Of a DNA stretch of 64,000 bases, positions 23,599 through 35,179 are shown in pieces. The stretch is from a virus, in the IMG/VR virus record IMGVR_UViG_3300037575_000021, positions 1-64,000 of that record, one strand, 5' to 3'. How positions within the stretch are numbered: the first letter of the stretch is position 1; every line of letters starts with the position of its first letter. Under the pieces are notes generated by a model. That model saw only the letters and a program-made list of their open reading frames with translations. It ran no database searches and was not told the origin of the DNA. The position numbers and the translations under genes were made by a program.

Positions 23599-24553
23599 CA
23601 GTTAACTCCTCAATCTCAGTAGCCTTAGCTCCGATACTGATTCCAGCAAGCTCTCCACTCTTACGTAGTTCCCAAGCAGTTTCGTTATGGAATTTAACTT
23701 CGATAAGTGGTTGGCCTTCACGGATATCAGTCTCACCAATAGTGCAATCCTCCTCAGCGACCCAAGCCTTGACAACAGAGAAAGCGTCTGTCTTATGCTT
23801 ATGGAATAGTCCATGTTGAAGAGTTTCGGATTTAATAGCTTTGTTTAAACTATTAACCATAGCAACTGTATCTTCTAGGGAAATAGTATCTCCAACTCCA
23901 TCAACATCATCAGGATGGATGTAAAGTTTTTCGATAGCTATCATTTCCTCTTCTTTGAACTGTTTGATTACAGTCTTACCTGAATCATTAGTTCCACCGA
24001 AGTGTTTGTTGAAGAAATTAAGAAGGCCTTTCTCAGTAGTCAGGTCATTCTCTTCTTCTACAACTCGATACTCAGTAAGTCTTACAACTTCTTCTGGGTT
24101 ACCTGTGATCTCTGCAGACACTCCAGAGTAAGTATAATTAACTCGGAAAGTCTTATATCCTTCATCAGTATAGATCTCGAAGTAAACATAACTGTCATCG
24201 GTATCCATAAGGTAAGGATAAACCTCAGGGTATTCTGAGCGAATAGCACTTGAGATAATGCTTCTCTTATCATTATCTGTATTCTTCTCAACATCTGAAT
24301 CTACAGACTTAATAACGTCTGGTAGCTCATTGCTAGGGAAGAACTTTTTATAAGCAGCTCTAATCTTTCGCTTAGCTGTAGCTTTAGCTGAACCACTTAG
24401 GTCTGTCTGATTGAATCTAGCAACTGCATTTTGCACATGAGATTTATCATGGATTGGAAATTTCCAAGTGGAGGTCTTTGAAGGATCCCCCACATAAGCA
24501 AAATCAGAAGCTGGTAATGATTCACCAGAACCAATCTTCTTTGTCTTAGCCAT
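23591..24553 (-). CDS. Prohead protease (XkdF-like) with an extra N-terminal domain
   Basis: C-terminal PDDVD..GD...LFH...W...KSGELAGISIGA. Confidence 0.8.
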   Translation of the reverse strand: MAKTKKIGSGESLPASDFAYVGDPSKTSTWKFPIHDKSHVQNAVARFNQTDLSGSAKATAKRKIRAAYKKFFPSNELPDVIKSVDSDVEKNTDNDKRSIISSAIRSEYPEVYPYLMDTDDSYVYFEIYTDEGYKTFRVNYTYSGVSAEITGNPEEVVRLTEYRVVEEENDLTTEKGLLNFFNKHFGGTNDSGKTVIKQFKEEEMIAIEKLYIHPDDVDGVGDTISLEDTVAMVNSLNKAIKSETLQHGLFHKHKTDAFSVVKAWVAEEDCTIGETDIREGQPLIEVKFHNETAWELRKSGELAGISIGAKATEIEELTDV

Positions 24554-24555
24554 AG

Positions 24556-26154
24556 TTAGTCCTCTAATGATATGGCAATCGTTTCACCACTCTCAGGATC
24601 GATAGCAAACATAATTCCATCTTCTTCTCTATCAAGAACAAGACTCTTAGCTACGCCACCATTCTCTGAGTTGGTCGAGCTTGATGCACCACCTGATTGA
24701 GTATTACCCGTACCAGATGTACCACCACTCTCTCCACCACGGCTTGTATCACCGTCATCAAAAGTTAACTCATCAATACCATCCGTTGGTAAGCCAGCCT
24801 TTTCATAAAGAGATGTAAGAGCCTCTTTAGTAAGACCTCCAACAGACTTCATTCTTTGAACAGCTTTAGAAAGAACGTCAAGATCAAACTCATCAGGATC
24901 CACAGGCTCAAATACTGGCATGTCTTCCCAATCAAGCTTAATGTTGTTGGCTTCTAGGATTGTAGGAACAAGTTGGTTGTTAATCAGATCTGTCTTCCAC
25001 AATACGTTGCGTTGAACGTACATAGCGTGTGTGGATGTCTGACTAGTACTAAGCGCATAAGAACCTGTAGAGTCCTGACCTAATAGTAGGAACCCAGATC
25101 CAAATACGTTGTAAATACTTTTACGTTTTTGATCAATGATATCTGATGTTTTGTACTGCTTACCACCACCGTCGATACCTTTGAATTGAATATCGTAGTC
25201 TTGGGTTTTGGTTGTAGGATCTACATCAGATGACAGAACTATATAGCTTGACTCACCAGCGTGTAACGCTGCAGCATCCTCTTGAAGGGCTGTATACTCA
25301 GCTGCCTCATCAGGATATGTGCCCGGGTCATTAGCTCTCTCAATCAGCTGGGAAGGAACTCTAAGCACTAGAGCACCACCGAGGTCTTTACTGACACCTA
25401 CAACTTCATACTTCTCAATAAGCTTCTTCTCTAACCAAGCATCGTAGCAATGCATAAGGGGAGAATCACCTTGAGGGTTATTATTGGTAGGATTGTAAAC
25501 GCTGTGGAGTAATTGTTCTGACTTGATAAATGGGTAATTAGCTTGCTGCAGGGCTGCTGTATCTAAGCTTGTTAATCCCTGAGCGAAATCAGTCATCTTA
25601 GGATTTCTATTTTTCTTAAGGTTTGGCTTTTGAACAAAACCGATAACCTCACGAAACTCTTTATCCCAGACCCATCCGTAAACGGACTTCTGATCTCTTG
25701 GTGCTAATTTCTTAAGAACTCTGAAGCCTTTGTAAGGCCCTGAGTTACGTTTTTCTGTAACAATATTCAGAAGGGAGAAACCGTAAACGATATCTGTGTT
25801 TAGGTTATTAATAGCCTGAAGCCAAGTGCCAGAACTCAAATTGCGAATATTGTAGTTAAGGAACTTAGCAACTTCCTCACTTATTGCTGATCCACTATTG
25901 GAAACAAACTTCCCACCTGAGAGTGCCATAAGCACTGGTAGATTAGTAACGTCTACAGAGTTAAACACTGCATCGTCAGCCATCATATTATCGAAAGTAC
26001 AGAGTCTACGTGGCATAGTAAGTTCAGTTCTACGTGTATCCTGAATGAACCTACCACTTGTTACTATTCGTGGCTGGCCTTTCTCACGATTGGTGATAGG
26101 CCTAACCACAGTTTTGCTTCCAGAGGTTTCAGCTTTATTGATATCTTCTGACAT
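24556..26154 (-). CDS. Portal protein
   Basis: 532 aa; YGFSLL, LAPRDQ, NP.G.SPL and GSYALS motifs; follows terminase. Confidence 0.9.
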   Translation of the reverse strand: MSEDINKAETSGSKTVVRPITNREKGQPRIVTSGRFIQDTRRTELTMPRRLCTFDNMMADDAVFNSVDVTNLPVLMALSGGKFVSNSGSAISEEVAKFLNYNIRNLSSGTWLQAINNLNTDIVYGFSLLNIVTEKRNSGPYKGFRVLKKLAPRDQKSVYGWVWDKEFREVIGFVQKPNLKKNRNPKMTDFAQGLTSLDTAALQQANYPFIKSEQLLHSVYNPTNNNPQGDSPLMHCYDAWLEKKLIEKYEVVGVSKDLGGALVLRVPSQLIERANDPGTYPDEAAEYTALQEDAAALHAGESSYIVLSSDVDPTTKTQDYDIQFKGIDGGGKQYKTSDIIDQKRKSIYNVFGSGFLLLGQDSTGSYALSTSQTSTHAMYVQRNVLWKTDLINNQLVPTILEANNIKLDWEDMPVFEPVDPDEFDLDVLSKAVQRMKSVGGLTKEALTSLYEKAGLPTDGIDELTFDDGDTSRGGESGGTSGTGNTQSGGASSSTNSENGGVAKSLVLDREEDGIMFAIDPESGETIAISLED

Positions 26155-29912: not shown

Positions 29913-29988
29913 TGGTAGCGGTAGCTGGATTCGAACCAACGATCTACAGGTAATGAGCCTGTCGAGATGACCACTTCTCTATACCGCA
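29913..29988 (-). tRNA. tRNA-Met(CAT), initiator-like (1:72 mismatch)
   Basis: Cloverleaf; ACAGG-CTCATTA-CCTGT; CCA end. Confidence 0.85.
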
Positions 29989-30056
29989 TCAAATAGGTTG
30001 GAGACCGACCTGCTAGATTAAACTAGGCGGGGGGCCTGTGTGTCAGTCTCCAAATA

Positions 30057-30116
30057 TGGTCGGGACTGATGAATCGAACATCATCAGGCTGATCAACACC
30101 TGTCCATTTAATCCCG
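30057..30116 (-). ncRNA. D-armless tRNA-like RNA
   Basis: 7-bp acceptor stem plus ACCA, TTCGATT T-loop, anticodon-like stem, no D arm. Confidence 0.6.
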
Positions 30117-30121
30117 TTAAT

Positions 30122-30206
30122 TGGTGGGGCCGGTAGGAGTCGAACCTACACAGTGTGGTAGCGTCTCGTTTACAGCGAGGTGGGCTCTCCAGTGCCCAGC
30201 GTCCCC
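30122..30206 (-). tRNA. tRNA-Tyr(GTA)
   Basis: CTGTAAA loop; long variable arm; CCA. Confidence 0.9.
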
Positions 30207-30230
30207 TTAATTTCTTAACCTTATATATTA

Positions 30231-30258
30231 AGTATACCATACTTTCTGGATTTGTCAA
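30231..30258 (-). promoter_or_regulatory. Sigma70-type promoter (TTGACAAATCC family)
   Basis: TTGACA-16-TATACT with TG extension. Confidence 0.75.
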
Positions 30259-30285
30259 CCCCCTAAGGTAGAAATAATTTAAAAT

Positions 30286-30362
30286 TGGTCGGAAATAAAG
30301 GATTCGAACCTTTGACCCCATGCTCCCAAAGCATGTGCGCTACCAGACTGCGCTAATTTCCG
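30286..30362 (-). tRNA. tRNA-Pro(TGG)
   Basis: CATGC-TTTGGGA-GCATG; CCA. Confidence 0.93.
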
Positions 30363-30368
30363 ATAATA

Positions 30369-30445
30369 TGGCGGTCTCACCGAGGATCGAACTCGGAACT
30401 CAGGATTGACAGTCCTGTGTTTTATCCATTTGAAACTATGAAACC
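30369..30445 (-). tRNA. tRNA-Asp(GTC)
   Basis: CAGGA-CTGTCAA-TCCTG; CCA. Confidence 0.92.
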
Positions 30446-30452
30446 TAAATTT

Positions 30453-30523
30453 TGGTGGAGACATAGAGAATCGAACTCTACTCGAAAAGGTGCAAGCCTT
30501 CCTCAGCATCCATGACTATCCCC
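30453..30523 (-). tRNA. tRNA-Ala(TGC), atypical D arm
   Basis: CTTGCAC loop; G3:U70 pair; CCA. Confidence 0.8.
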
Positions 30524-30528
30524 GGATA

Positions 30529-30603
30529 TGGCACGGCTACTAGGACTCGAACCCAGACCAAAGGAGTAGAAATCCCATGTACTATCCCTTATACTATAGC
30601 CGT
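30529..30603 (-). tRNA. tRNA-Arg(TCT)
   Basis: TTTCTAC loop; T-loop; CCA. Confidence 0.88.
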
Positions 30604-30609
30604 ATTATT

Positions 30610-30685
30610 TGGTATCGCTACGGAGGCTCGAACTCCGAACGCAAACTTGAAAGGCTTGTGTTTTAACCAGTTAAACTACAGCGAT
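30610..30685 (-). tRNA. tRNA-Glu(TTC)
   Basis: CAAGC-CTTTCAA-GTTTG; CCA. Confidence 0.9.
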
Positions 30686-30694
30686 ATTGTTCTT

Positions 30695-30763
30695 TGGCTC
30701 CCCGTAGAGGATTTGAACCTCTAGTTTTCAGCTTCGTAGACCTATACCATCCAGTGCCGGGGA
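30695..30763 (-). tRNA. tRNA-Arg(ACG), degenerate D arm and anticodon stem
   Basis: CTACGAA loop; intact T arm, acceptor and CCA. Confidence 0.65.
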
Positions 30764-30773
30764 ATTAAATTCT

Positions 30774-30849
30774 TGGTGCTTACTCATGGAATCGAACCAT
30801 GGACATCTGATGTGTAAGAACAGTGCTCTCCCAACTGAGCTAAGTAAGC
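30774..30849 (-). tRNA. tRNA-Val(TAC)
   Basis: CTTACAC loop; canonical D and T arms; CCA. Confidence 0.9.
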
Positions 30850-30905
30850 GTAAATACTCTTAAGGATAACCTCAGCTATGCTTAAGAATACTCGTGTAAA
30901 CAACT

Positions 30906-30979
30906 TGGTGGGGCTACAGAGATTCGAACTCTGATTGATCGGTTAAAAGCCGAATATTCTACCATTGAATTATAACCCC
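30906..30979 (-). tRNA. tRNA-Lys(TTT)
   Basis: TCGG-CTTTTAA-CCGA; CCA. Confidence 0.92.
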
Positions 30980-30981
30980 AT

Positions 30982-31119
30982 TCAAATATCTACGTCATCA
31001 CGACGCTTCTTGTGTTTTACCTCGCCACTCTTTGAGGCCTTCTTACGGTCAACATGGACTGCTGAGCGGTTAAAAGAACCTACATGTTTAGCAACGAGGT
31101 TGCGTTTTGTGTGTTTCAT
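30982..31119 (-). CDS. Small basic protein (45 aa, MKHTKRNLVAKH...)
   Basis: GGGAGG RBS and its own promoter upstream; not in ORF track. Confidence 0.7.
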   Translation of the reverse strand: MKHTKRNLVAKHVGSFNRSAVHVDRKKASKSGEVKHKKRRDDVDI

Positions 31120-31158
31120 AACAACCTCCCTTAGTTGCTTTCTTGACTTTATATATCC

Positions 31159-31186
31159 AGTATAACACGATTTCTGGATTTGTCAA
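31159..31186 (-). promoter_or_regulatory. Sigma70-type promoter (TTGACAAATCC family)
   Basis: TTGACA-16-TATACT with TG extension. Confidence 0.75.
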
Positions 31187-31205
31187 GTATTAATTTAAAA
31201 TAAAT

Positions 31206-31280
31206 TGGCCAAGGGGGACAGATTTGAACTGCCATTGCAAGGATTTGGAGTCCTGCCGAATACCATTAACTCACCCCCTG
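31206..31280 (-). tRNA. tRNA-Trp(CCA)
   Basis: AGGA-CTCCAAA-TCCT; CCA end. Confidence 0.85.
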
Positions 31281-31284
31281 AATT

Positions 31285-31360
31285 TGGTGTACCCTGATGG
31301 AATCGAACCAACGCAACCCAGATCTTCAATCTAGTGCTCTACCTGCTGAGCTAAGGATAC
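31285..31360 (-). tRNA. tRNA-Phe(GAA)
   Basis: CTAGA-TTGAAGA-TCTGG; CCA. Confidence 0.92.
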
Positions 31361-31366
31361 AAAATA

Positions 31367-31440
31367 TGGTGCCTAACCACAGAATCGAACTGCGAATAGC
31401 TGATTACAAAACAGCCGTTATACCATTTAACTAGTCAGGC
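31367..31440 (-). tRNA. tRNA-Thr(TGT)
   Basis: TTTGTAA loop; CCA. Confidence 0.9.
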
Positions 31441-31453
31441 ATTAAAACTTATA

Positions 31454-31530
31454 GGGGTGGCCTCACGGATTCGAACCGAGGACATACCAGACTCACAATC
31501 TGATGCAATTGACCACTCTGCCAAGGCCAC
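31454..31530 (-). tRNA. tRNA-His(GTG), CCA not fully encoded
   Basis: TCAGA-TTGTGAG-TCTGG; C73 discriminator. Confidence 0.88.
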
Positions 31531-31598
31531 ACCTATAAGCTCTAAATAAGAACTCCCACGTAAGTTTAAAACTAAGAGGCGGGAGCCGTGTTAATTAT

Positions 31599-31672
31599 TG
31601 GTACTAGGTGATGGTAACGCTCCACCGTCGCACCGTTATCAGCGGTGTGCTCTACTTTTGAGCTAACCCAGC
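31599..31672 (-). tRNA. tRNA-Ile(GAT), atypical T loop AGCGTTA
   Basis: CACCG-CTGATAA-CGGTG; CCA. Confidence 0.85.
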
Positions 31673-31683
31673 ATTATTCTTTA

Positions 31684-31721
31684 TGGAGCGGGCCTATGGA
31701 TGCACATAGGGATCGTCCCGC
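31684..31721 (-). ncRNA. tRNA minihelix-like element ending in TCCA
   Basis: GCGGG/CCCGC-TCCA plus a CCTATG-TGCATC-CATAGG hairpin. Confidence 0.5.
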
Positions 31722-31830
31722 ATAACCTCACCTCACGGTGGCATCTAAATGTCTGGTGGAAGGCACCTTTACAGTATGTAAGTGTCTCACCGTTATCTTC
31801 ATAAGACCTTCACTTATCACCAGACAAATA

Positions 31831-31907
31831 TGGCAGGGGTGACACGATTCGAACGTGCGATCACGGGATCAAAACCCGATGCTTTAGGCCAGCTAAGCTA
31901 CACCCCG
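31831..31907 (-). tRNA. tRNA-Gln(TTG)
   Basis: CGGG-TTTTGAT-CCCG; CCA. Confidence 0.9.
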
Positions 31908-31918
31908 ATAAAACTGTT

Positions 31919-31992
31919 TGGAGTCCAGTATAGGATTTTAACCTATCTCTCAAGGGTTGCAGCCAAGCGCATAGTCACTCTGCCAACTGGAC
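31919..31992 (-). tRNA. tRNA-Cys(GCA), mismatched anticodon stem
   Basis: CTGCAAC loop; U73; CCA. Confidence 0.8.
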
Positions 31993-32000
31993 ATAAACTT

Positions 32001-32097
32001 TGGCGGAAGCGTAGAGATTCGAACTCTAACACCCTTTCAAGGATCGACGGTTTTCAAGACCGCTGCCAGTACCCAGACTCTTTTGGCTTACACTTCC
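32001..32097 (-). tRNA. tRNA-Ser(TGA), enlarged D loop
   Basis: GCGGT-CTTGAAA-ACCGT; long variable arm; GCCA. Confidence 0.9.
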
Positions 32098-32108
32098 TAA
32101 ATTTTAAA

Positions 32109-32186
32109 TGGTAGGCCAAGGCTGATTCGAACAGCTCCTTCTACCGTTTATGAGACGGTGGCTTTAACCTATTAAGCTATTGGCCC
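32109..32186 (-). tRNA. tRNA-CAT (Ile2 or elongator Met)
   Basis: ACCGT-CTCATAA-ACGGT; CCA. Confidence 0.85.
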
Positions 32187-32188
32187 AT

Positions 32189-32264
32189 TGGTTGTCATGA
32201 GTGGAATTGAACCACTATCCTCTTCCTTATGAGGGAAGCGCATAAACCATTCTGCCACATGACA
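32189..32264 (-). tRNA. tRNA-CAT (Met or Ile2)
   Basis: CTTCC-CTCATAA-GGAAG; CCA. Confidence 0.85.
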
Positions 32265-32265
32265 T

Positions 32266-32508
32266 TTAACTTCTGGAGACAACATTGGTTTGTTGCCAGT
32301 TAGACCAGACCTCTACGGACTTGATCTTAGTTGGAGAGTATCCACTATAATCAAAGGGATCTTTCGGGCCTTTATCGGCTTCCCTGAACTTAATATCAAC
32401 CTCTACAGAACTGTATGGAACCTGTGCCTTAGTGGCAAAGTCATTTTTAATTAATTCAATCACATCTCCCTGTGTAAGAGTTGTGGACTTAACTGATTTT
32501 ATTTCCAT
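32266..32508 (-). CDS. Hypothetical protein within the tRNA cluster
   Basis: GAGGAGG RBS; 80 aa. Confidence 0.7.
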   Translation of the reverse strand: MEIKSVKSTTLTQGDVIELIKNDFATKAQVPYSSVEVDIKFREADKGPKDPFDYSGYSPTKIKSVEVWSNWQQTNVVSRS

Positions 32509-32534
32509 ACAATCCTCCTCGAATTCTTAACTTT

Positions 32535-32619
32535 TGGTGCTCCCAGAGAGACTCGAACTCTCACACCCGAAGGTACTGGAATCTAAACCCAGCGCGTCTA
32601 CCAATTCCACCACAGGAGC
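32535..32619 (-). tRNA. tRNA-Leu(TAG)
   Basis: CTGGG-TTTAGAT-TCCAG; variable arm; CCA. Confidence 0.92.
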
Positions 32620-32620
32620 T

Positions 32621-32696
32621 TGGAGCATCTAGAGGGAATCGAACCCTACTCACTATGGCTTGGAAGGCCAAGGACTAAACCCGTTAGCTTAGATGC
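32621..32696 (-). tRNA. tRNA-Gly(TCC)
   Basis: TGGC-CTTCCAA-GCCA; TCCA. Confidence 0.9.
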
Positions 32697-32740
32697 TTTT
32701 AAAGAGACCCAAGAAGGGTCTCATAAGTCCCAGTATGGGA

Positions 32741-34207
32741 CTAGAACGAATAACGTTCTTTGTTAACTGTCTCCAACATCATATCAATTGGCGTTACGTT
32801 CTTGCAAGACAAGATTGAACGCATGATAGCTGGTGAGAAACCACTTACTAGTGCAGCCCCTTTGTCATTAACAGTCACAGAGCTGTTACCCTCACGAGCT
32901 TTAATGTTCCAGAAGATGATATCAGGTAGTTCATATCCAGCTTCTTGGTATGCACTACTTGCGTACTGTAAGGCTGTCTTATTCCACTTGCCAGCATCGT
33001 GACGACCACCGTATCCGTAAGAGTTGCCACCTGTACATGAGTCAAACTCCATGTCACTTAAGATCAAGATCTTAGTTGGCATTTCCTCTTGAGGAACTCC
33101 TGCTCGTACTGCGTTGTCAAGCACTGTTTGGAACGCTTTGGCGATATCAGTATTCATACCCCAACCAGAACGTTTGCACTGAAGCATACGATCATACAGG
33201 CTCCCGTTCAACTTAACGAGTTGTGGGCTGCCAGAGAACGTTAAGAATGTATCCTTAAACTTACCTTCAAGTCGTTCTGAGATGTATAAGCCTAAGCTCA
33301 CAGCTACATCCATACAGGTAACAGTACCGCTTCCGCCTGCAGAGCAACCCATAGATCCACTCACATCTACCATTGGTAGGATTCGTTCATCAGAACCTCC
33401 TAGGTAATCTGGTAAAGCATCCCACTGAGCATTAGCCGCTTGTGACTCACCACGTACCATAGACTTCATGATATCGTATGGGTAAACAGCTCCAGCGTTG
33501 ATCTTAACTGACTTAGCAATTTCAGGATCTTTGCTAGTCAATGCATCTAAGTATGCACGGTAACGATCTTCGCAGTTACGTAAGAATGCTTTCTGATAAC
33601 GTGCTGAAGCAACTGAAGGTAGCTTCGAGAAATCGATAGAATCGAAATCCTTAGCTGATAACTTCTGCTCAACTGTATCAGACAAGTTCTTAAGGGCTAC
33701 ACGCCACATCTTAGGTGTGATGTATCGACCTGTAACTTCCTGAACGTGCTTACGAAGCCCGTTAGCAATTTTCTTCTGACGAGGCATCCACTTGGCACAC
33801 AGACCATCTTTAGCCTCTAATGCTGTACGGATCATCTCGTATGCAGCATACTTTGTCTTTTGGTTGGTGAAGACCAATAGGTCATCCCAACGACCAACCT
33901 CAGGAATCAAATGCATGAAGCGTAGAACCTGCGAAGGATCTGTCTTGTCTAGGTACACTAGGAAATCACGGAAAAGTTGGCGTTCACCAGCTCCACCACG
34001 AACGTCTCGTGCCCATAGCATGATTCGGGTTGCTAAATCCTTGTCGCCAGCGTTGTAGGCTGAAGACATAAGATTTACGATATTCTTACCACGAGAGGCA
34101 CCCACTGCTCCAAATAGATCTACACATGGATCCATTGAAGATAGGTTAGTTTTGCCACCGTTGGCTGTGCGGCCTTCTGTATTAAAGGCCTCCATTAATG
34201 ATGTCAT
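32741..34207 (-). CDS. Ro60/TROVE-like RNA-binding protein with C-terminal vWA domain (DUF2828-type)
   Basis: RDVRGGAGER, GRWDDL and AKWMPR in the helical region; MIDAS DVSGSM, LSDMEFD, IIFWN and VSGFS. Confidence 0.85.
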   Translation of the reverse strand: MTSLMEAFNTEGRTANGGKTNLSSMDPCVDLFGAVGASRGKNIVNLMSSAYNAGDKDLATRIMLWARDVRGGAGERQLFRDFLVYLDKTDPSQVLRFMHLIPEVGRWDDLLVFTNQKTKYAAYEMIRTALEAKDGLCAKWMPRQKKIANGLRKHVQEVTGRYITPKMWRVALKNLSDTVEQKLSAKDFDSIDFSKLPSVASARYQKAFLRNCEDRYRAYLDALTSKDPEIAKSVKINAGAVYPYDIMKSMVRGESQAANAQWDALPDYLGGSDERILPMVDVSGSMGCSAGGSGTVTCMDVAVSLGLYISERLEGKFKDTFLTFSGSPQLVKLNGSLYDRMLQCKRSGWGMNTDIAKAFQTVLDNAVRAGVPQEEMPTKILILSDMEFDSCTGGNSYGYGGRHDAGKWNKTALQYASSAYQEAGYELPDIIFWNIKAREGNSSVTVNDKGAALVSGFSPAIMRSILSCKNVTPIDMMLETVNKERYSF

Positions 34208-34237: not shown

Positions 34238-34266
34238 ATGGTAACACATTTTGTGTTGGTTGTCAA
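34238..34266 (-). promoter_or_regulatory. Sigma70-type promoter for the Ro60-like gene
   Basis: TTGACA-17-TACCAT with TG extension; AGGAGG RBS downstream. Confidence 0.7.
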
Positions 34267-34272
34267 TAGGTT

Positions 34273-34339
34273 CTGAGCAATTTTTGCTTTTCAAGGCTTC
34301 CAATAGTTTTGAAAATAGTATTTTTGCTGAAGTTGCTCA
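34273..34339 (-). ncRNA. CAGCAA-motif Y-RNA-like unit A
   Basis: TGAGCAA-CTT-CAGCAA...TTGCTCA-G. Confidence 0.6.
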
Positions 34340-34356: not shown

Positions 34357-34421
34357 CAGGGCAAATCCTAAACGTAGTTTGATTAAAAGTCAAATGTTTT
34401 GGGTATTGCTGTAGTTGCCCT
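34357..34421 (-). ncRNA. CAGCAA-motif Y-RNA-like unit B carrying a Lys(UUU) anticodon arm
   Basis: AGGGCAA-CTA-CAGCAA...TTTGA-CTTTTAA-TCAAA...TTGCCCT-G. Confidence 0.7.
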
Positions 34422-34477
34422 TTAAGTATTTATCTAGTATAAGCCCTCGTGGGAAGACCTATAGTGGATAATTAAGT

Positions 34478-34568
34478 CAGGCTAATTTGTTTGCACCATT
34501 GCAATCTCCAAAGTTGGCTGGAAATAAAGGAATCGAACCTCTAAAGTTATGTTTGCTGTAGTTAGCCT
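34478..34568 (-). ncRNA. CAGCAA-motif Y-RNA-like unit C (reduced permuted tRNA)
   Basis: AGGCTAA-CTA-CAGCAA, T arm, acceptor hairpin with CCA, D-like hairpin, TTAGCCT-G. Confidence 0.7.
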
Positions 34569-34579
34569 TTAAATTGTTT

Positions 34580-34716
34580 CAGGTTCCTGTTGTTTGCGTC
34601 TGCTGCTCTACCAACTGAGCTACCCCTTGTCAATGTAAGTTTAAGTGGTCAAGGGGGCTGGACTCGAACCAGCGACCAACAGTATCCATTAGCATTATTG
34701 TTGCTGCAAGGAACCT
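34580..34716 (-). ncRNA. CAGCAA-motif YrlA-like unit D (circularly permuted tRNA)
   Basis: AGGTTCCT-TG-CAGCAA, T arm, CCCCTTG-ACCA, loop, CAAGGGG, D arm GCTCAGTTGGTAGAGC, AGGAACCT-G. Confidence 0.8.
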
Positions 34717-34738
34717 TTAAATCTTTATCTTGGTGCCC

Positions 34739-34766
34739 ATTATACATACTTTGATGTAAAAGTCAA
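34739..34766 (-). promoter_or_regulatory. Sigma70-type promoter for the small-RNA array
   Basis: TTGACT-16-TATAAT about 20 nt upstream of unit D. Confidence 0.7.
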
Positions 34767-34784
34767 GCACTTTTTAAATTAATT

Positions 34785-34870
34785 TGGCGGAAGATATAGG
34801 ATTCGAACCTATGCACCGTTTCCGATGTACTCCTTAGCAGGGAGCTGCGTTACCACTCTGCCAATCTTCC
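34785..34870 (-). tRNA. tRNA-Ser(GCT)
   Basis: GCTCC-CTGCTAA-GGAGT; variable arm; GCCA. Confidence 0.92.
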
Positions 34871-34878
34871 TGAAATCT

Positions 34879-35010
34879 CTATTCAGACTTCCCTTTCTTC
34901 TTGGTTGTATCCTTCGGCTTACGTCGATAGTTAACGCCAGCGTTAGATTTATCTCCCCAAGAATGGGAAAGGAATATGTACTCAAATTCTTTTTGGTATG
35001 GTCTTGACAT
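34879..35010 (-). CDS. Small basic protein (43 aa, MSRPYQKEF...)
   Basis: GGAGGA RBS; not in ORF track. Confidence 0.55.
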   Translation of the reverse strand: MSRPYQKEFEYIFLSHSWGDKSNAGVNYRRKPKDTTKKKGKSE

Positions 35011-35103
35011 AATTTATCCTCCGTCTGATTGTAATATGCATAAATAAACCTATTATCTATGATTATAGCCCTAATATATCTTTTTATACATATTAGGAAT
35101 ATT

Positions 35104-35179
35104 TGGCTGGCATAGCTGGACTCGAACCAGCATACGTCTGATTAACAGTCAGGTCGCCTACCTAGTAGCGCATATGCCA
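35104..35179 (-). tRNA. tRNA-Asn(GTT)
   Basis: CTGA-CTGTTAA-TCAG; GCCA. Confidence 0.9.

What the first reader, a model, noticed from the sequence alone, without database searches (positions are those of the whole stretch)
34357..34421. Isolated tRNA-Lys(UUU) anticodon stem-loop displayed on a Y-like RNA: candidate nuclease decoy
Seen: unit B carries TTTGA-CTTTTAA-TCAAA (34394-34378), a perfect 5-bp stem with the 7-nt Lys(UUU) loop. It is close to the enterobacterial tRNA-Lys arm (GUUGA-CUUUUAA-UCAAU) and unlike the phage's own tRNA-Lys stem (TTCGG/CCGAT). Established: tRNA-Lys(UUU) is the target of the anti-phage nucleases PrrC and PARIS AriB. Inference: the phage pairs a host-like decoy arm with a divergent, possibly resistant, functional tRNA-Lys.
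Basis: partly seen in the sequence, partly recalled or inferred. Interest (0 to 1): 0.82.

Follow-up and report, generated by a model that had tools for sequence, protein, structure and literature searches.

The report
Lysine anticodon-arm mimic on Ro60-partner RNA
A 95-kb phage makes a ~65-base RNA that carries a copy of the lysine tRNA anticodon arm on a conserved "handle" next to a Ro60-shaped protein gene; many phages share this RNA type, which I did not find described, and it may act as bait for proteins that read tRNA anticodons.

Summary
The hairpin TTTGA-CTTTTAA-TCAAA lies at 34394-34378 on the minus strand, inside a 65-nt unit at 34357-34421. It is the third of four tandem "handle" RNAs between a sigma-70-like promoter and a gene whose product is predicted to fold like Ro60 (Pfam DUF2828 plus a vWA-like domain).

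The hairpin is not a chance match. The unit belongs to a widespread phage RNA family with a covarying 7-bp terminal stem, CAGCAA, a second helix with a conserved A.A mismatch, and a terminal 5-bp/7-nt hairpin. In a scan that left the 17-nt hairpin free, all 51 distinct members had a perfect stem and a C-U-NNN-A-A loop (UUU 36, UCU 14, UGU 1). The stem took four covarying forms. So the anticodon-loop signature is selected, but the stem's likeness to enterobacterial tRNA-Lys is not required.

The host is unknown, so "host-like arm plus resistant phage tRNA" cannot be judged. The nuclease-decoy function is plausible but untested.

Rfam has no match for this RNA type, and seven paper searches found no description of it. 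This scan has noted the same kind of system on at least 159 other genomes.

The parts
34739..34766 (-). sigma-70-like promoter TTGACT-16-TATAAT that reads into the RNA array
   Evidence: 11 of 12 consensus matches. It sits directly after tRNA-Ser.
34581..34716 (-). Unit 1: handle (AGGTTCCT..CAGCAA) carrying a circularly permuted tRNA-like body (T arm, acceptor-like hairpin with CCA, D arm)
   Evidence: Rfam YrlA scores 43.5 bits at 34597-34681, below the gathering score of 69, and covers only the tRNA-like part. Handle detection.
34479..34568 (-). Unit 2: handle carrying a T-arm-like hairpin and two small hairpins. Close relatives have a different permuted tRNA-like unit at this position.
   Evidence: Model R1 scores 21.7 bits.
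34429..34475 (-). Spacer hairpin of 11 bp between units 2 and 3
   Evidence: Fold z = -4.0. Three compensatory pair changes in L009/L010. No U tract.
34357..34421 (-). Unit 3 (the finding): 7-bp terminal stem AGGGCAA/TTGCCCT, CT, ACAGCAA, helix 2 (CC-A-AAAC / GTTT-A-GG with an A.A mismatch), then A, the anticodon-arm mimic and CTAC
   Evidence: R1 scores 57.5 bits. Identical in two relatives whose protein is 95% identical.
34378..34394 (-). Anticodon-arm mimic TTTGA-CTTTTAA-TCAAA (5 bp, 7-nt loop, 'anticodon' UUU)
34274..34339 (-). Unit 4: handle carrying a hairpin whose loop holds TATTGGAA. This (U)AUUGG payload recurs in KVP40-like phages and a cyanophage.
34238..34266 (-). Second promoter-like site TTGACA-17-TACCAT just upstream of the protein gene
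   Evidence: The relatives read TATTAT at the -10 hexamer.
32741..34207 (-). Gene for a 488-aa Ro60-fold protein (Pfam DUF2828 + DUF7788; PHROG 850 'RNA-binding protein')
   Evidence: AlphaFold model with pLDDT 75. The best 12 chains Foldseek lists from the PDB are all Ro60/TROVE over the full length, probability 1.0, TM 0.39-0.58.
30906..30979 (-). The phage's own tRNA-Lys(UUU), anticodon arm TTCGG-CTTTTAA-CCGAT

Best explanation
Unit 3 is one of four co-transcribed partner RNAs of the phage's Ro60-fold protein. These RNAs share a handle (a terminal stem plus single-stranded CAGCAA) that most likely binds the protein. Each carries a different payload. The payload of unit 3 is a mimic of a tRNA anticodon arm with the lysine anticodon UUU. 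It sits on a second helix, with one A before the arm (where N26 lies in tRNA) and 3-4 bases after it (where the variable loop lies). Shown here: the anatomy, the conservation, the covariation, the constraint of the loop to C-U-NNN-A-A, and the linkage and co-orientation with the protein gene. Inferred: the ribonucleoprotein presents the arm as bait to a factor that reads anticodon loops. The most likely such factor is a host anticodon nuclease of an anti-phage system, so that the factor is titrated, trapped or handed to a partner. The stated confidence covers this whole bait reading. That the unit is a real member of a conserved anticodon-arm-display RNA family I put at about 0.9. That the target is specifically a defence nuclease I put at about 0.3.
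For: 1) Anatomy and promoter.
2) Ro60 fold of the neighbouring protein.
3) The pattern CAGCAA-N(4-30)-TTGACTTTTAATCAA finds 89 viral contigs, nearly all with the same unit and with covarying stems.
4) Covariation on 109 distinct sequences: 93.5% of cells paired against 75% in shuffles, all 13 pairs with double changes, score 0.448 against 0.145 (0 of 500 shuffles reach it), slid controls 0.03-0.08.
5) With helix 2 fixed and the hairpin left free, 51 of 51 distinct members have a perfect 5-bp stem and a CU-NNN-AA loop, with four covarying stems and anticodons UUU, UCU and UGU.
6) In 80 loci fetched through the protein alone, all 106 model hits lie on the gene's strand. Among 99 distinct units, 15 CU-NNN-AA hairpins were seen against 0.08 expected, maximum 2 in 300 shuffles. 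A census by handle alone gave 13 non-Lys anticodon-type loops against 2.2 expected for all anticodon-type loops, Lys included.
7) Of 129 loci fetched through RNA patterns alone (mean 8.8 kb), 56 hold the Ro-like gene, and strict units split 34 to 0 for the gene's strand.
8) Cultured carriers are Aeromonas phage LAh_8, Vibrio phages EniLVp02 and PhiImVa-1, and Pseudomonas phage Milchi. PhiImVa-1 carries GCU, UUU and CAU arms in one array.
9) Bas63 gp130, a Ro60-like protein just upstream of that phage's tRNA genes, counters the Ppl defence system (PMC11482910). Felix O1, which I take from memory to be the same genus as Bas63, has a 44%-identical homologue followed by handle RNAs.
10) PARIS AriB recognises the anticodon stem-loop of tRNA-Lys (PMC11464382).
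Against: There is no evidence here of transcription, processing, protein binding or nuclease interaction. The stem is not fixed to any tRNA-Lys sequence, and the same stem carries UCU, so a nuclease that reads stem sequence (AriB cuts between residues 40 and 41) is not an obvious target for the whole family. Many units in the same arrays carry payloads that are not anticodon-like, such as permuted tRNA bodies, (U)AUUGG loops and A-rich linkers. Felix O1 has no anticodon-type unit in the 9 kb examined, so the system does not depend on anticodon arms. The one published phenotype concerns Ppl, an uncharacterised ATPase plus PHP-domain system that the authors propose degrades phage and host DNA, not a known tRNA nuclease. 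The covariance model was trained on CUUUUAA loops, so its ranking favours similar loops; searches do not share this bias.
Confidence: 0.45

Rival explanations
1. The arm is a true tRNA mimic, but its target is a host tRNA-handling protein rather than a defence nuclease. Candidates are an anticodon-loop modification enzyme (t6A37, i6A37 or wobble-U enzymes) or a synthetase that reads the anticodon. The ribonucleoprotein would recruit or titrate that protein.
For: Nearly all displayed anticodons end in U36-A37 or A36-A37. From my own knowledge, not tested here, these are the contexts of t6A and i6A: UUU, CUU, UCU, UGU, GUU, GCU, GAU and CAU in the first group, and UGA, GUA, GCA and CCA in the second. 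YrlA, the known tRNA-like Y RNA, is modified by tRNA enzymes (PMC4201824).
Against: AT-rich composition alone favours U or A at position 36. No benefit to the phage is evident, and there is no experimental hint.
Confidence: 0.2
2. The hairpin is only a stabilising or generic protein-binding element, like the small pyrimidine-rich loops of YrlB-type Y RNAs. Its likeness to tRNA-Lys would then be incidental to AU-rich sequence.
For: Chen et al. [quoted passage not shown] The stem is not fixed, and other units carry unrelated payloads.
Against: The loop keeps C32, U33, A37 and A38 in 51 of 51 cases while the three middle bases switch between real anticodons. Loops with purine-containing anticodons (GUU, GAU, GCA, GUA, CAU, GCU) occur on the same scaffold, so pyrimidine richness is not the constraint. 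The stem is always 5 bp and the loop always 7 nt.
Confidence: 0.15
3. The arm serves RNA repair or surveillance. It could be a sentinel substrate whose cleavage signals nuclease attack, or a platform that brings damaged tRNA to repair or decay enzymes, as proposed for bacterial Ro60 with Y RNA and the Rtc operon.
For: Ro60/Y RNA systems are linked to RNA decay and to the RtcB repair operon (PMC4201824; PMC7790460 listed; PMC7824862). Vibrio phage EniLVp02 has an RNA ligase gene beside its array.
Against: This 95-kb genome, estimated complete, has no RtcB and no Rnl2-type ligase. No mechanism links a free hairpin to repair.
Confidence: 0.12
4. The unit is a decaying remnant of a tRNA-Lys gene that happened to fuse with a handle, and it has no function of its own.
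For: Arrays sit inside tRNA clusters and swap payloads quickly. Unit 2 differs between relatives whose protein is 95% identical.
Against: The unit is conserved in at least 89 contigs with compensatory changes in three helices and an invariant loop frame. It is identical in the close relatives while neighbouring units changed.
Confidence: 0.04

Closest known systems
Ro60 (Rsr) with bacterial and phage Y RNAs YrlA/YrlB (Rfam RF02553; Chen et al. 2014, PMC4201824)
   Same: A Ro60-fold ring plus vWA protein is encoded next to small RNAs whose 5' and 3' ends pair in a terminal stem. At least one RNA per locus mimics tRNA, and several RNAs occur per locus.
   Different: The protein falls in Pfam DUF2828/DUF7788, not TROVE. 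The handle (stem plus CAGCAA) is not matched by the YrlA model, which aligns only to the tRNA-like part of unit 1 and stays below threshold. YrlA mimics the D arm, T arm and acceptor stem and lacks an anticodon arm. Unit 3 is the converse: an anticodon arm alone.
Bas63 gp130, a Ro60-like counter-defence protein against Ppl (PhageMaP preprint, PMC11482910)
   Same: A phage protein of Ro60-like structure lies directly beside the tRNA cluster. Its authors guessed that some neighbouring 'tRNAs' are Y RNAs. Felix O1 (which I take from memory to be the same genus as Bas63) has a 44%-identical homologue followed by handle RNAs.
   Different: No partner RNA was defined there. The defence countered is not known to cut tRNA. 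I could not fetch Bas63 itself, so the link runs through Felix O1.
Phage tRNAs that escape anticodon nucleases (T5 tRNA-Lys against PARIS AriB, PMC11464382; anticodon-loop variants, van den Berg et al. 2023, cited)
   Same: Both concern the contest over tRNA-Lys(UUU) and its anticodon arm. This phage also carries its own tRNA-Lys with a different stem.
   Different: Those are functional replacement tRNAs. Unit 3 cannot be charged or decode, so it could only act as bait.
Class I RNAs of Dictyostelium (PMC7919456)
   Same: They are about 60 nt long, with a short covarying stem joining the two ends, a conserved 11-nt motif next to the 5' strand and a variable remainder. The RNA ends in C-UGU, and phage units end in C-UGU(U). 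The reported invariant C6, C9, A10 and A11 fit CAGCAA.
   Different: They are eukaryotic, the known binding protein is an RRM protein, and the paper's text does not print the motif, so identity could not be checked.

Membership tests
Ro60/Y RNA ribonucleoprotein (YrlA/YrlB type) | Adjacent gene for a Ro60 protein (HEAT-repeat ring plus vWA domain) | tested here: met
   The AlphaFold model has pLDDT 75. The best 12 chains Foldseek lists from the PDB are all Ro60/TROVE, full length, probability 1.0. Sequence alone gives only Pfam DUF2828/DUF7788 and E = 0.047 to PDB TROVE chains.
Ro60/Y RNA ribonucleoprotein (YrlA/YrlB type) | The RNA reaches the Rfam YrlA (RF02553) gathering score | tested here: not met
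   Unit 3 has no match even at E <= 10. Unit 1 scores 43.5 bits against a gathering score of 69, over model positions 23-89 only.
Ro60/Y RNA ribonucleoprotein (YrlA/YrlB type) | Terminal stem formed by the 5' and 3' ends, carrying the protein-binding module | tested here: inconclusive
   The terminal stem is present and covaries (99.4% paired, 5 of 5 pairs with double changes). The conserved module, single-stranded CAGCAA, differs from the described Ro-binding helix.
Ro60/Y RNA ribonucleoprotein (YrlA/YrlB type) | Physical association of the RNA with the protein | not testable with these tools
   Only genomic linkage is available: 106 of 106 hits on the gene's strand, and 56 of 129 RNA-fetched loci hold the gene.
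   R1 scores 57.5 bits, E = 5e-10. All elements are visible.
tRNA (RF00005) | Cloverleaf with acceptor, D and T arms | tested here: not met
   ARAGORN and Rfam call no tRNA at 34357-34421.
Decoy of an anticodon nuclease (PrrC, PARIS AriB and others) | The arm equals the host tRNA-Lys arm | tested here: inconclusive
   It matches E. coli lysT at 15 of 17 bases and matches some Clostridia and Kapaibacterium tRNA-Lys genes at 17 of 17. The host is unknown, family members use other stems, and the 15-mer core is rare in the class containing Oceanimonas (G001's class) (6 of 201).
Decoy of an anticodon nuclease (PrrC, PARIS AriB and others) | Binding, cleavage or inhibition of the nuclease, and protection of the phage | not testable with these tools
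   This needs bench work; see the decisive next steps.
Dictyostelium Class I RNA | Short terminal stem, 11-nt motif beside the 5' strand, and 3' CUGU | tested here: inconclusive
   The stem, the position of the motif and the C-UGU end agree with the description in PMC7919456. The motif sequence is given only in a figure. No such Rfam family appeared among the matches.

The most novel reading that the evidence does not exclude
Phages use a Ro60-like protein as a display platform for exchangeable tRNA parts. The anticodon-arm units would be programmable baits, retuned by one- or two-base changes of the 'anticodon' (UUU, UCU, UGU, GUU, GCU, CAU and others) to neutralise whichever anticodon nuclease the local hosts deploy. 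This would be a general RNA-based counter-defence against tRNA-cutting immunity.
Probability: 0.3. Interest if true: 0.88.

Novelty: new variant of a known kind. Interest (0 to 1): 0.72.

Why it matters
Cutting tRNA anticodon loops is a common bacterial defence against phages. The known phage answers are repair enzymes and replacement tRNAs. An RNA that shows only the anticodon arm, mounted on a Ro60-like protein and conserved across phages of Aeromonas, Vibrio and Pseudomonas as well as many uncultured phages, would be a third kind of answer.

It would also give the widespread phage "RNA-binding protein" (PHROG 850, found in 711 phage records) a defined set of partner RNAs, and it would extend Ro60/Y-RNA biology. 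In addition, genome records annotate related units, those that carry whole tRNA bodies on the handle, as odd or pseudo tRNAs, and that annotation could be corrected.

The idea is directly testable in cultured phages such as LAh_8, PhiImVa-1, EniLVp02 and Milchi.

Tried and rejected
- **Promoter reading:** the scan flagged TTGACT-17-TAGGAT inside the hairpin. The -10 hexamer is not conserved, and the variant stems (TTAGA, TTGAA) destroy the -35 hexamer, so this is rejected.
- **Terminator:** no U tract follows the hairpin, and no terminator-like site was found.
- **Coding:** the minus strand of the array has no ORF of 40 aa or more.
- **Closer relatives:** P0002 led to no close locus in IMG/VR. 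The only near relatives, with 95%-identical protein, have an identical unit 3 and so give no information.
- **BLAST against cultured phages:** the whole array matched only a tRNA-like piece in Bacillus phage G. Short queries did find carriers.
- **BLAST of the arm against E. coli genomes:** no match. I read lysT directly instead.
- **Host assignment:** the tail sheath is 37% and the terminase 57% identical to their best matches, both in phages of enterobacteria. That is too distant to name a host.
- **Bacterial genomes:** the Lys-unit pattern mostly hit true tRNA-Lys genes. The few real units lay on short contigs of metagenome bins, so they give no host link.
- **First regex census:** it was noisy, with 84 hits per strand in shuffles, and was replaced by stricter filters and a covariance model.
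- **Bas63:** I could not fetch it because my guessed accession was another phage. Felix O1 was used in its place.
- **Literature:** seven searches found no description of these RNAs.

Full report
**What is there**

The window comes from a 95,313-bp IMG/VR virus record that CheckV estimates as complete. On the minus strand it has 18 tRNA genes at 29913-32619 and two more at 34785-35179. A 488-aa ORF lies at 32741-34207.

Between tRNA-Ser and this ORF there is a near-consensus promoter, TTGACT-16-TATAAT, at 34766-34739. Four tandem units follow it. Each unit begins with a 7-8-bp strand, then 1-3 bases and CAGCAA. Each ends with the complementary strand followed by G.

- Unit 1 (34581-34716) carries a circularly permuted tRNA-like body. 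Rfam's YrlA model aligns to this part only and scores 43.5 bits, below its gathering score of 69.
- Unit 2 (34479-34568) carries a T-arm-like hairpin.
- Unit 3 (34357-34421) is the finding.
- Unit 4 (34274-34339) carries a hairpin with TATTGGAA in its loop.

**The observation**

The hairpin TTTGA-CTTTTAA-TCAAA is at 34394-34378 on the minus strand. A match to the E. coli arm with at most 2 mismatches occurs once in the window, against 0.02 expected. E. coli K-12 lysT reads GTTGA-CTTTTAA-TCAAT. The phage's own tRNA-Lys reads TTCGG-CTTTTAA-CCGAT.

**The protein**

Pfam gives DUF2828 plus DUF7788, and PHROGs gives family 850, "RNA-binding protein". Sequence similarity to solved TROVE proteins is not significant (E = 0.047).

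An AlphaFold model built from 27 homologues has a mean pLDDT of 75. With Foldseek it matches Ro60 proteins over its full length. These are Ro60 of Thermus phage phiLo, Deinococcus Rsr, and frog and human Ro60. They fill the best 12 listed chains, with probability 1.0 and TM 0.39-0.58. Only vWA domains follow them. "Ro60-like" is therefore justified by fold.

Homologues occur in 711 phage records from many host genera.

**The unit is a member of a conserved family**

The pattern CAGCAA-N(4-30)-TTGACTTTTAATCAA found 89 stretches in IMG/VR. Nearly all show the same architecture:
- a terminal stem that differs in sequence but stays paired (GGATGC/GCATCC, GGATAG/CTATCC, GACAC/GTGTC; here GGGCAA/TTGCCC);
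- CAGCAA;
- a second helix interrupted by an A.A mismatch (TTT-A-TAC / GTA-A-AAA; here CC-A-AAAC / GTTT-A-GG);
- one A, then the hairpin, then 3-4 bases (ACC, CCC, CTAC).

These units often lie directly after the CCA end of one tRNA gene and before the next.

I built a covariance model (R1) from 44 units. On 109 distinct matches, 93.5% of cells pair against 75% in shuffles. All 13 pairs show changes on both sides. The covariation score is 0.448 against 0.145, reached by 0 of 500 shuffles, and sliding the partners gives 0.03-0.08.

**Is the hairpin an anticodon-arm mimic or only a hairpin?**

Three tests avoid forcing the answer.

(a) I fixed helix 2 of the commonest subfamily and left the 17 bases free, using CAGCAA-N(3-10)-TATACA-N17-ACCGTAAAA. 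This gave 74 stretches and 51 distinct sequences. All 51 have a perfect 5-bp stem and a C-U-NNN-A-A loop:

| Stem | Anticodon | Distinct sequences |
|---|---|---|
| TTTGA/TCAAA | UUU | 22 |
| TTTGA/TCAAA | UCU | 9 |
| TTAGA/TCTAA | UUU | 8 |
| TTGAA/TTCAA | UUU | 5 |
| TTAGA/TCTAA | UCU | 5 |
| TTCAA/TTGAA | UGU | 1 |
| TTCAA/TTGAA | UUU | 1 |

(b) In 80 loci fetched through the protein alone, the model found 106 matches, all on the strand of the protein gene. Among 99 distinct units there are 40 hairpins of 5 bp with a 7-nt loop, against 9.6 expected. Of these, 22 have Y-U-NNN-R-N loops (0.64 expected) and 15 have C-U-NNN-A-A loops (0.08 expected, at most 2 in 300 shuffles). The anticodons are UGU, UCU, UUU, UGA, CUU, GUA, GCA, UUC and UAU.

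(c) A census that used only the handle gave 13 non-Lys anticodon-type loops, against 2.2 expected for all anticodon-type loops, Lys included.

Cultured phages show the same pattern. Aeromonas phage LAh_8 has the Lys unit just upstream of its "RNA-binding protein" gene. Vibrio phage EniLVp02 and Pseudomonas phage Milchi have it in their tRNA clusters. Vibrio phage PhiImVa-1 has, in one array, the same scaffold with CTGCTAA (GCU), CTTTTAA on a TAGA/TCTA stem, and CTCATAA (CAU).

The frame of an anticodon loop (C32, U33, A37, A38; a 7-nt loop on a 5-bp stem) is therefore under selection. The three middle bases change between real anticodons.

**What the data do not support**

The stem's likeness to the enterobacterial tRNA-Lys arm is not a conserved property:
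- About 40% of Lys-loop members of the best-sampled subfamily use other stems.
- The very stem of unit 3 also carries UCU, although E. coli tRNA-Arg(UCU), as I recall it, has an unrelated stem.
- The host of this phage cannot be named. The best matches are 37% (tail sheath) and 57% (terminase) identical, both in phages of enterobacteria.
- True bacterial tRNA-Lys genes with the core TTGA-CTTTTAA-TCAA exist in several phyla, some with exactly TTTGA/TCAAA. But the 15-mer was found in only 6 of 201 evenly sampled genomes of the class containing Oceanimonas (G001's class), against 116 of 201 of a Clostridia class.
- Phage-encoded true tRNA-Lys(UUU) genes in the fetched loci (n = 60) have very diverse stems, and only 2 have TTGA/TCAA.

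**Linkage with the protein**

Of 129 loci fetched through RNA patterns alone (mean 8.8 kb), 56 contain the Ro-like gene. Strictly defined anticodon-arm units split 34 to 0 for the gene's strand.

In this genome the model hits only unit 3 (57.5 bits) and unit 2 (21.7 bits). No RtcB and no Rnl2-type RNA ligase is encoded.

In two relatives whose protein is 95% identical, unit 3 is identical and unit 4 differs by one base. Unit 2 is replaced by a different permuted tRNA-like unit, and further units stand where the window has tRNA-Ser and the promoter. The arrays are therefore modular.

**Function**

Nothing here shows function. The only experimental lead is a preprint in which Bas63 gp130 counters the Ppl defence system (PMC11482910). 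Gp130 is structurally Ro60-like and lies next to that phage's tRNA genes. Felix O1, which I take from memory to be the same genus as Bas63, has a 44%-identical homologue followed by at least four handle units between its tRNA genes. None of these has an anticodon-type loop.

PARIS AriB recognises the anticodon stem-loop of tRNA-Lys and cuts between residues 40 and 41 (PMC11464382). PrrC cutting tRNA-Lys is established knowledge that I did not re-check.

I rank the readings as follows, with the rivals at the values filed in the rival list. Bait for a factor that reads anticodon loops comes first at 0.45; within that, a defence nuclease is the most likely target, at about 0.3. Next come titration or recruitment of tRNA-handling enzymes (0.20), a generic hairpin (0.15), repair or sentinel roles (0.12), and a functionless remnant (0.04).

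**Novelty**

Rfam has no match for units 3 and 4. Seven literature searches found no description.

The nearest known system is Ro60 with YrlA/YrlB (PMC4201824). YrlA mimics the top half of tRNA, whereas this unit mimics the anticodon arm on a different handle and sits beside a different sequence family of Ro60-fold proteins.

The scan's own index lists 178 earlier notes on at least 159 genomes describing the same kind of system, so this is a further, well-resolved member. One of those notes pointed to Dictyostelium Class I RNAs. The published description fits the handle: a short terminal stem, an 11-nt motif beside the 5' strand with invariant C6, C9, A10 and A11, and a 3' C-UGU end. The motif itself is not printed in the text, so identity could not be checked.

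**Limits**

There is no evidence of expression or binding. The covariance model favours loops like its training set.

Noticed in passing
window 34429-34475 (minus): An 11-bp hairpin lies between units 2 and 3 (fold z = -4.0). It has three compensatory pair changes in the close relatives L009/L010 and no U tract. It may be a processing site.
   Followed up: partly
window 34274-34339 (minus); L186 1207-1269; L187 1205-1266: A second recurrent payload class consists of hairpins whose loops read (U)AUUGG, AUGG or UUGGUAU. The last resembles the G18-G19 part of a tRNA D loop. The class is present in window unit 4, KVP40-like Vibrio phages and Synechococcus phage BUCT-ZZ01.
   Followed up: partly
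L011 3395-3637 (Cronobacter phage S13); L189 ~1353-1476 (Vibrio phage EniLVp02): Full tRNA bodies have their anticodon loop replaced by a long hairpin bearing GCAAAC...CAGCA, which is the handle in permuted order. The records annotate the two in S13 as tRNA-Ser and tRNA-OTHER (121 and 113 nt). The EniLVp02 body has no annotation in its record.
   Followed up: partly
L009 2004-2101 and L181 7701-7803: Units in which the handle replaces the acceptor stem of an otherwise complete tRNA body (D arm, anticodon arm, T arm). L009 has loop CTATTAA and L181 has loop CTTCTAA.
   Followed up: no
L297 3871-4700 (Salmonella phage Felix O1, record 23870-24700): At least four unannotated handle units (AGAAGACC..ACAGCAA..GGTCTGG) lie between the tRNA genes just downstream of ORF42, the 'RNA-binding protein'. 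One carries a permuted tRNA-like body.
   Followed up: partly
L009/L010 compared with window 34479-34800: Relatives whose Ro-like protein is 95% identical have a different unit 2. They also have four more units where the window has tRNA-Ser and a promoter. Payloads are exchanged quickly while units 3 and 4 stay fixed.
   Followed up: partly
window 32624-32697 (minus): A tRNA-like sequence scores below the tRNA cut-off (27.5 bits, and 33 bits to the tRNA-Sec model). It lies between tRNA-Leu and the end of the Ro-like gene.
   Followed up: no
L245, L262, L292, L079: Contigs from bacterial metagenome bins and viral contigs carry a tRNA-Lys-like anticodon arm and T arm with no recognisable D arm upstream.
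   Followed up: no
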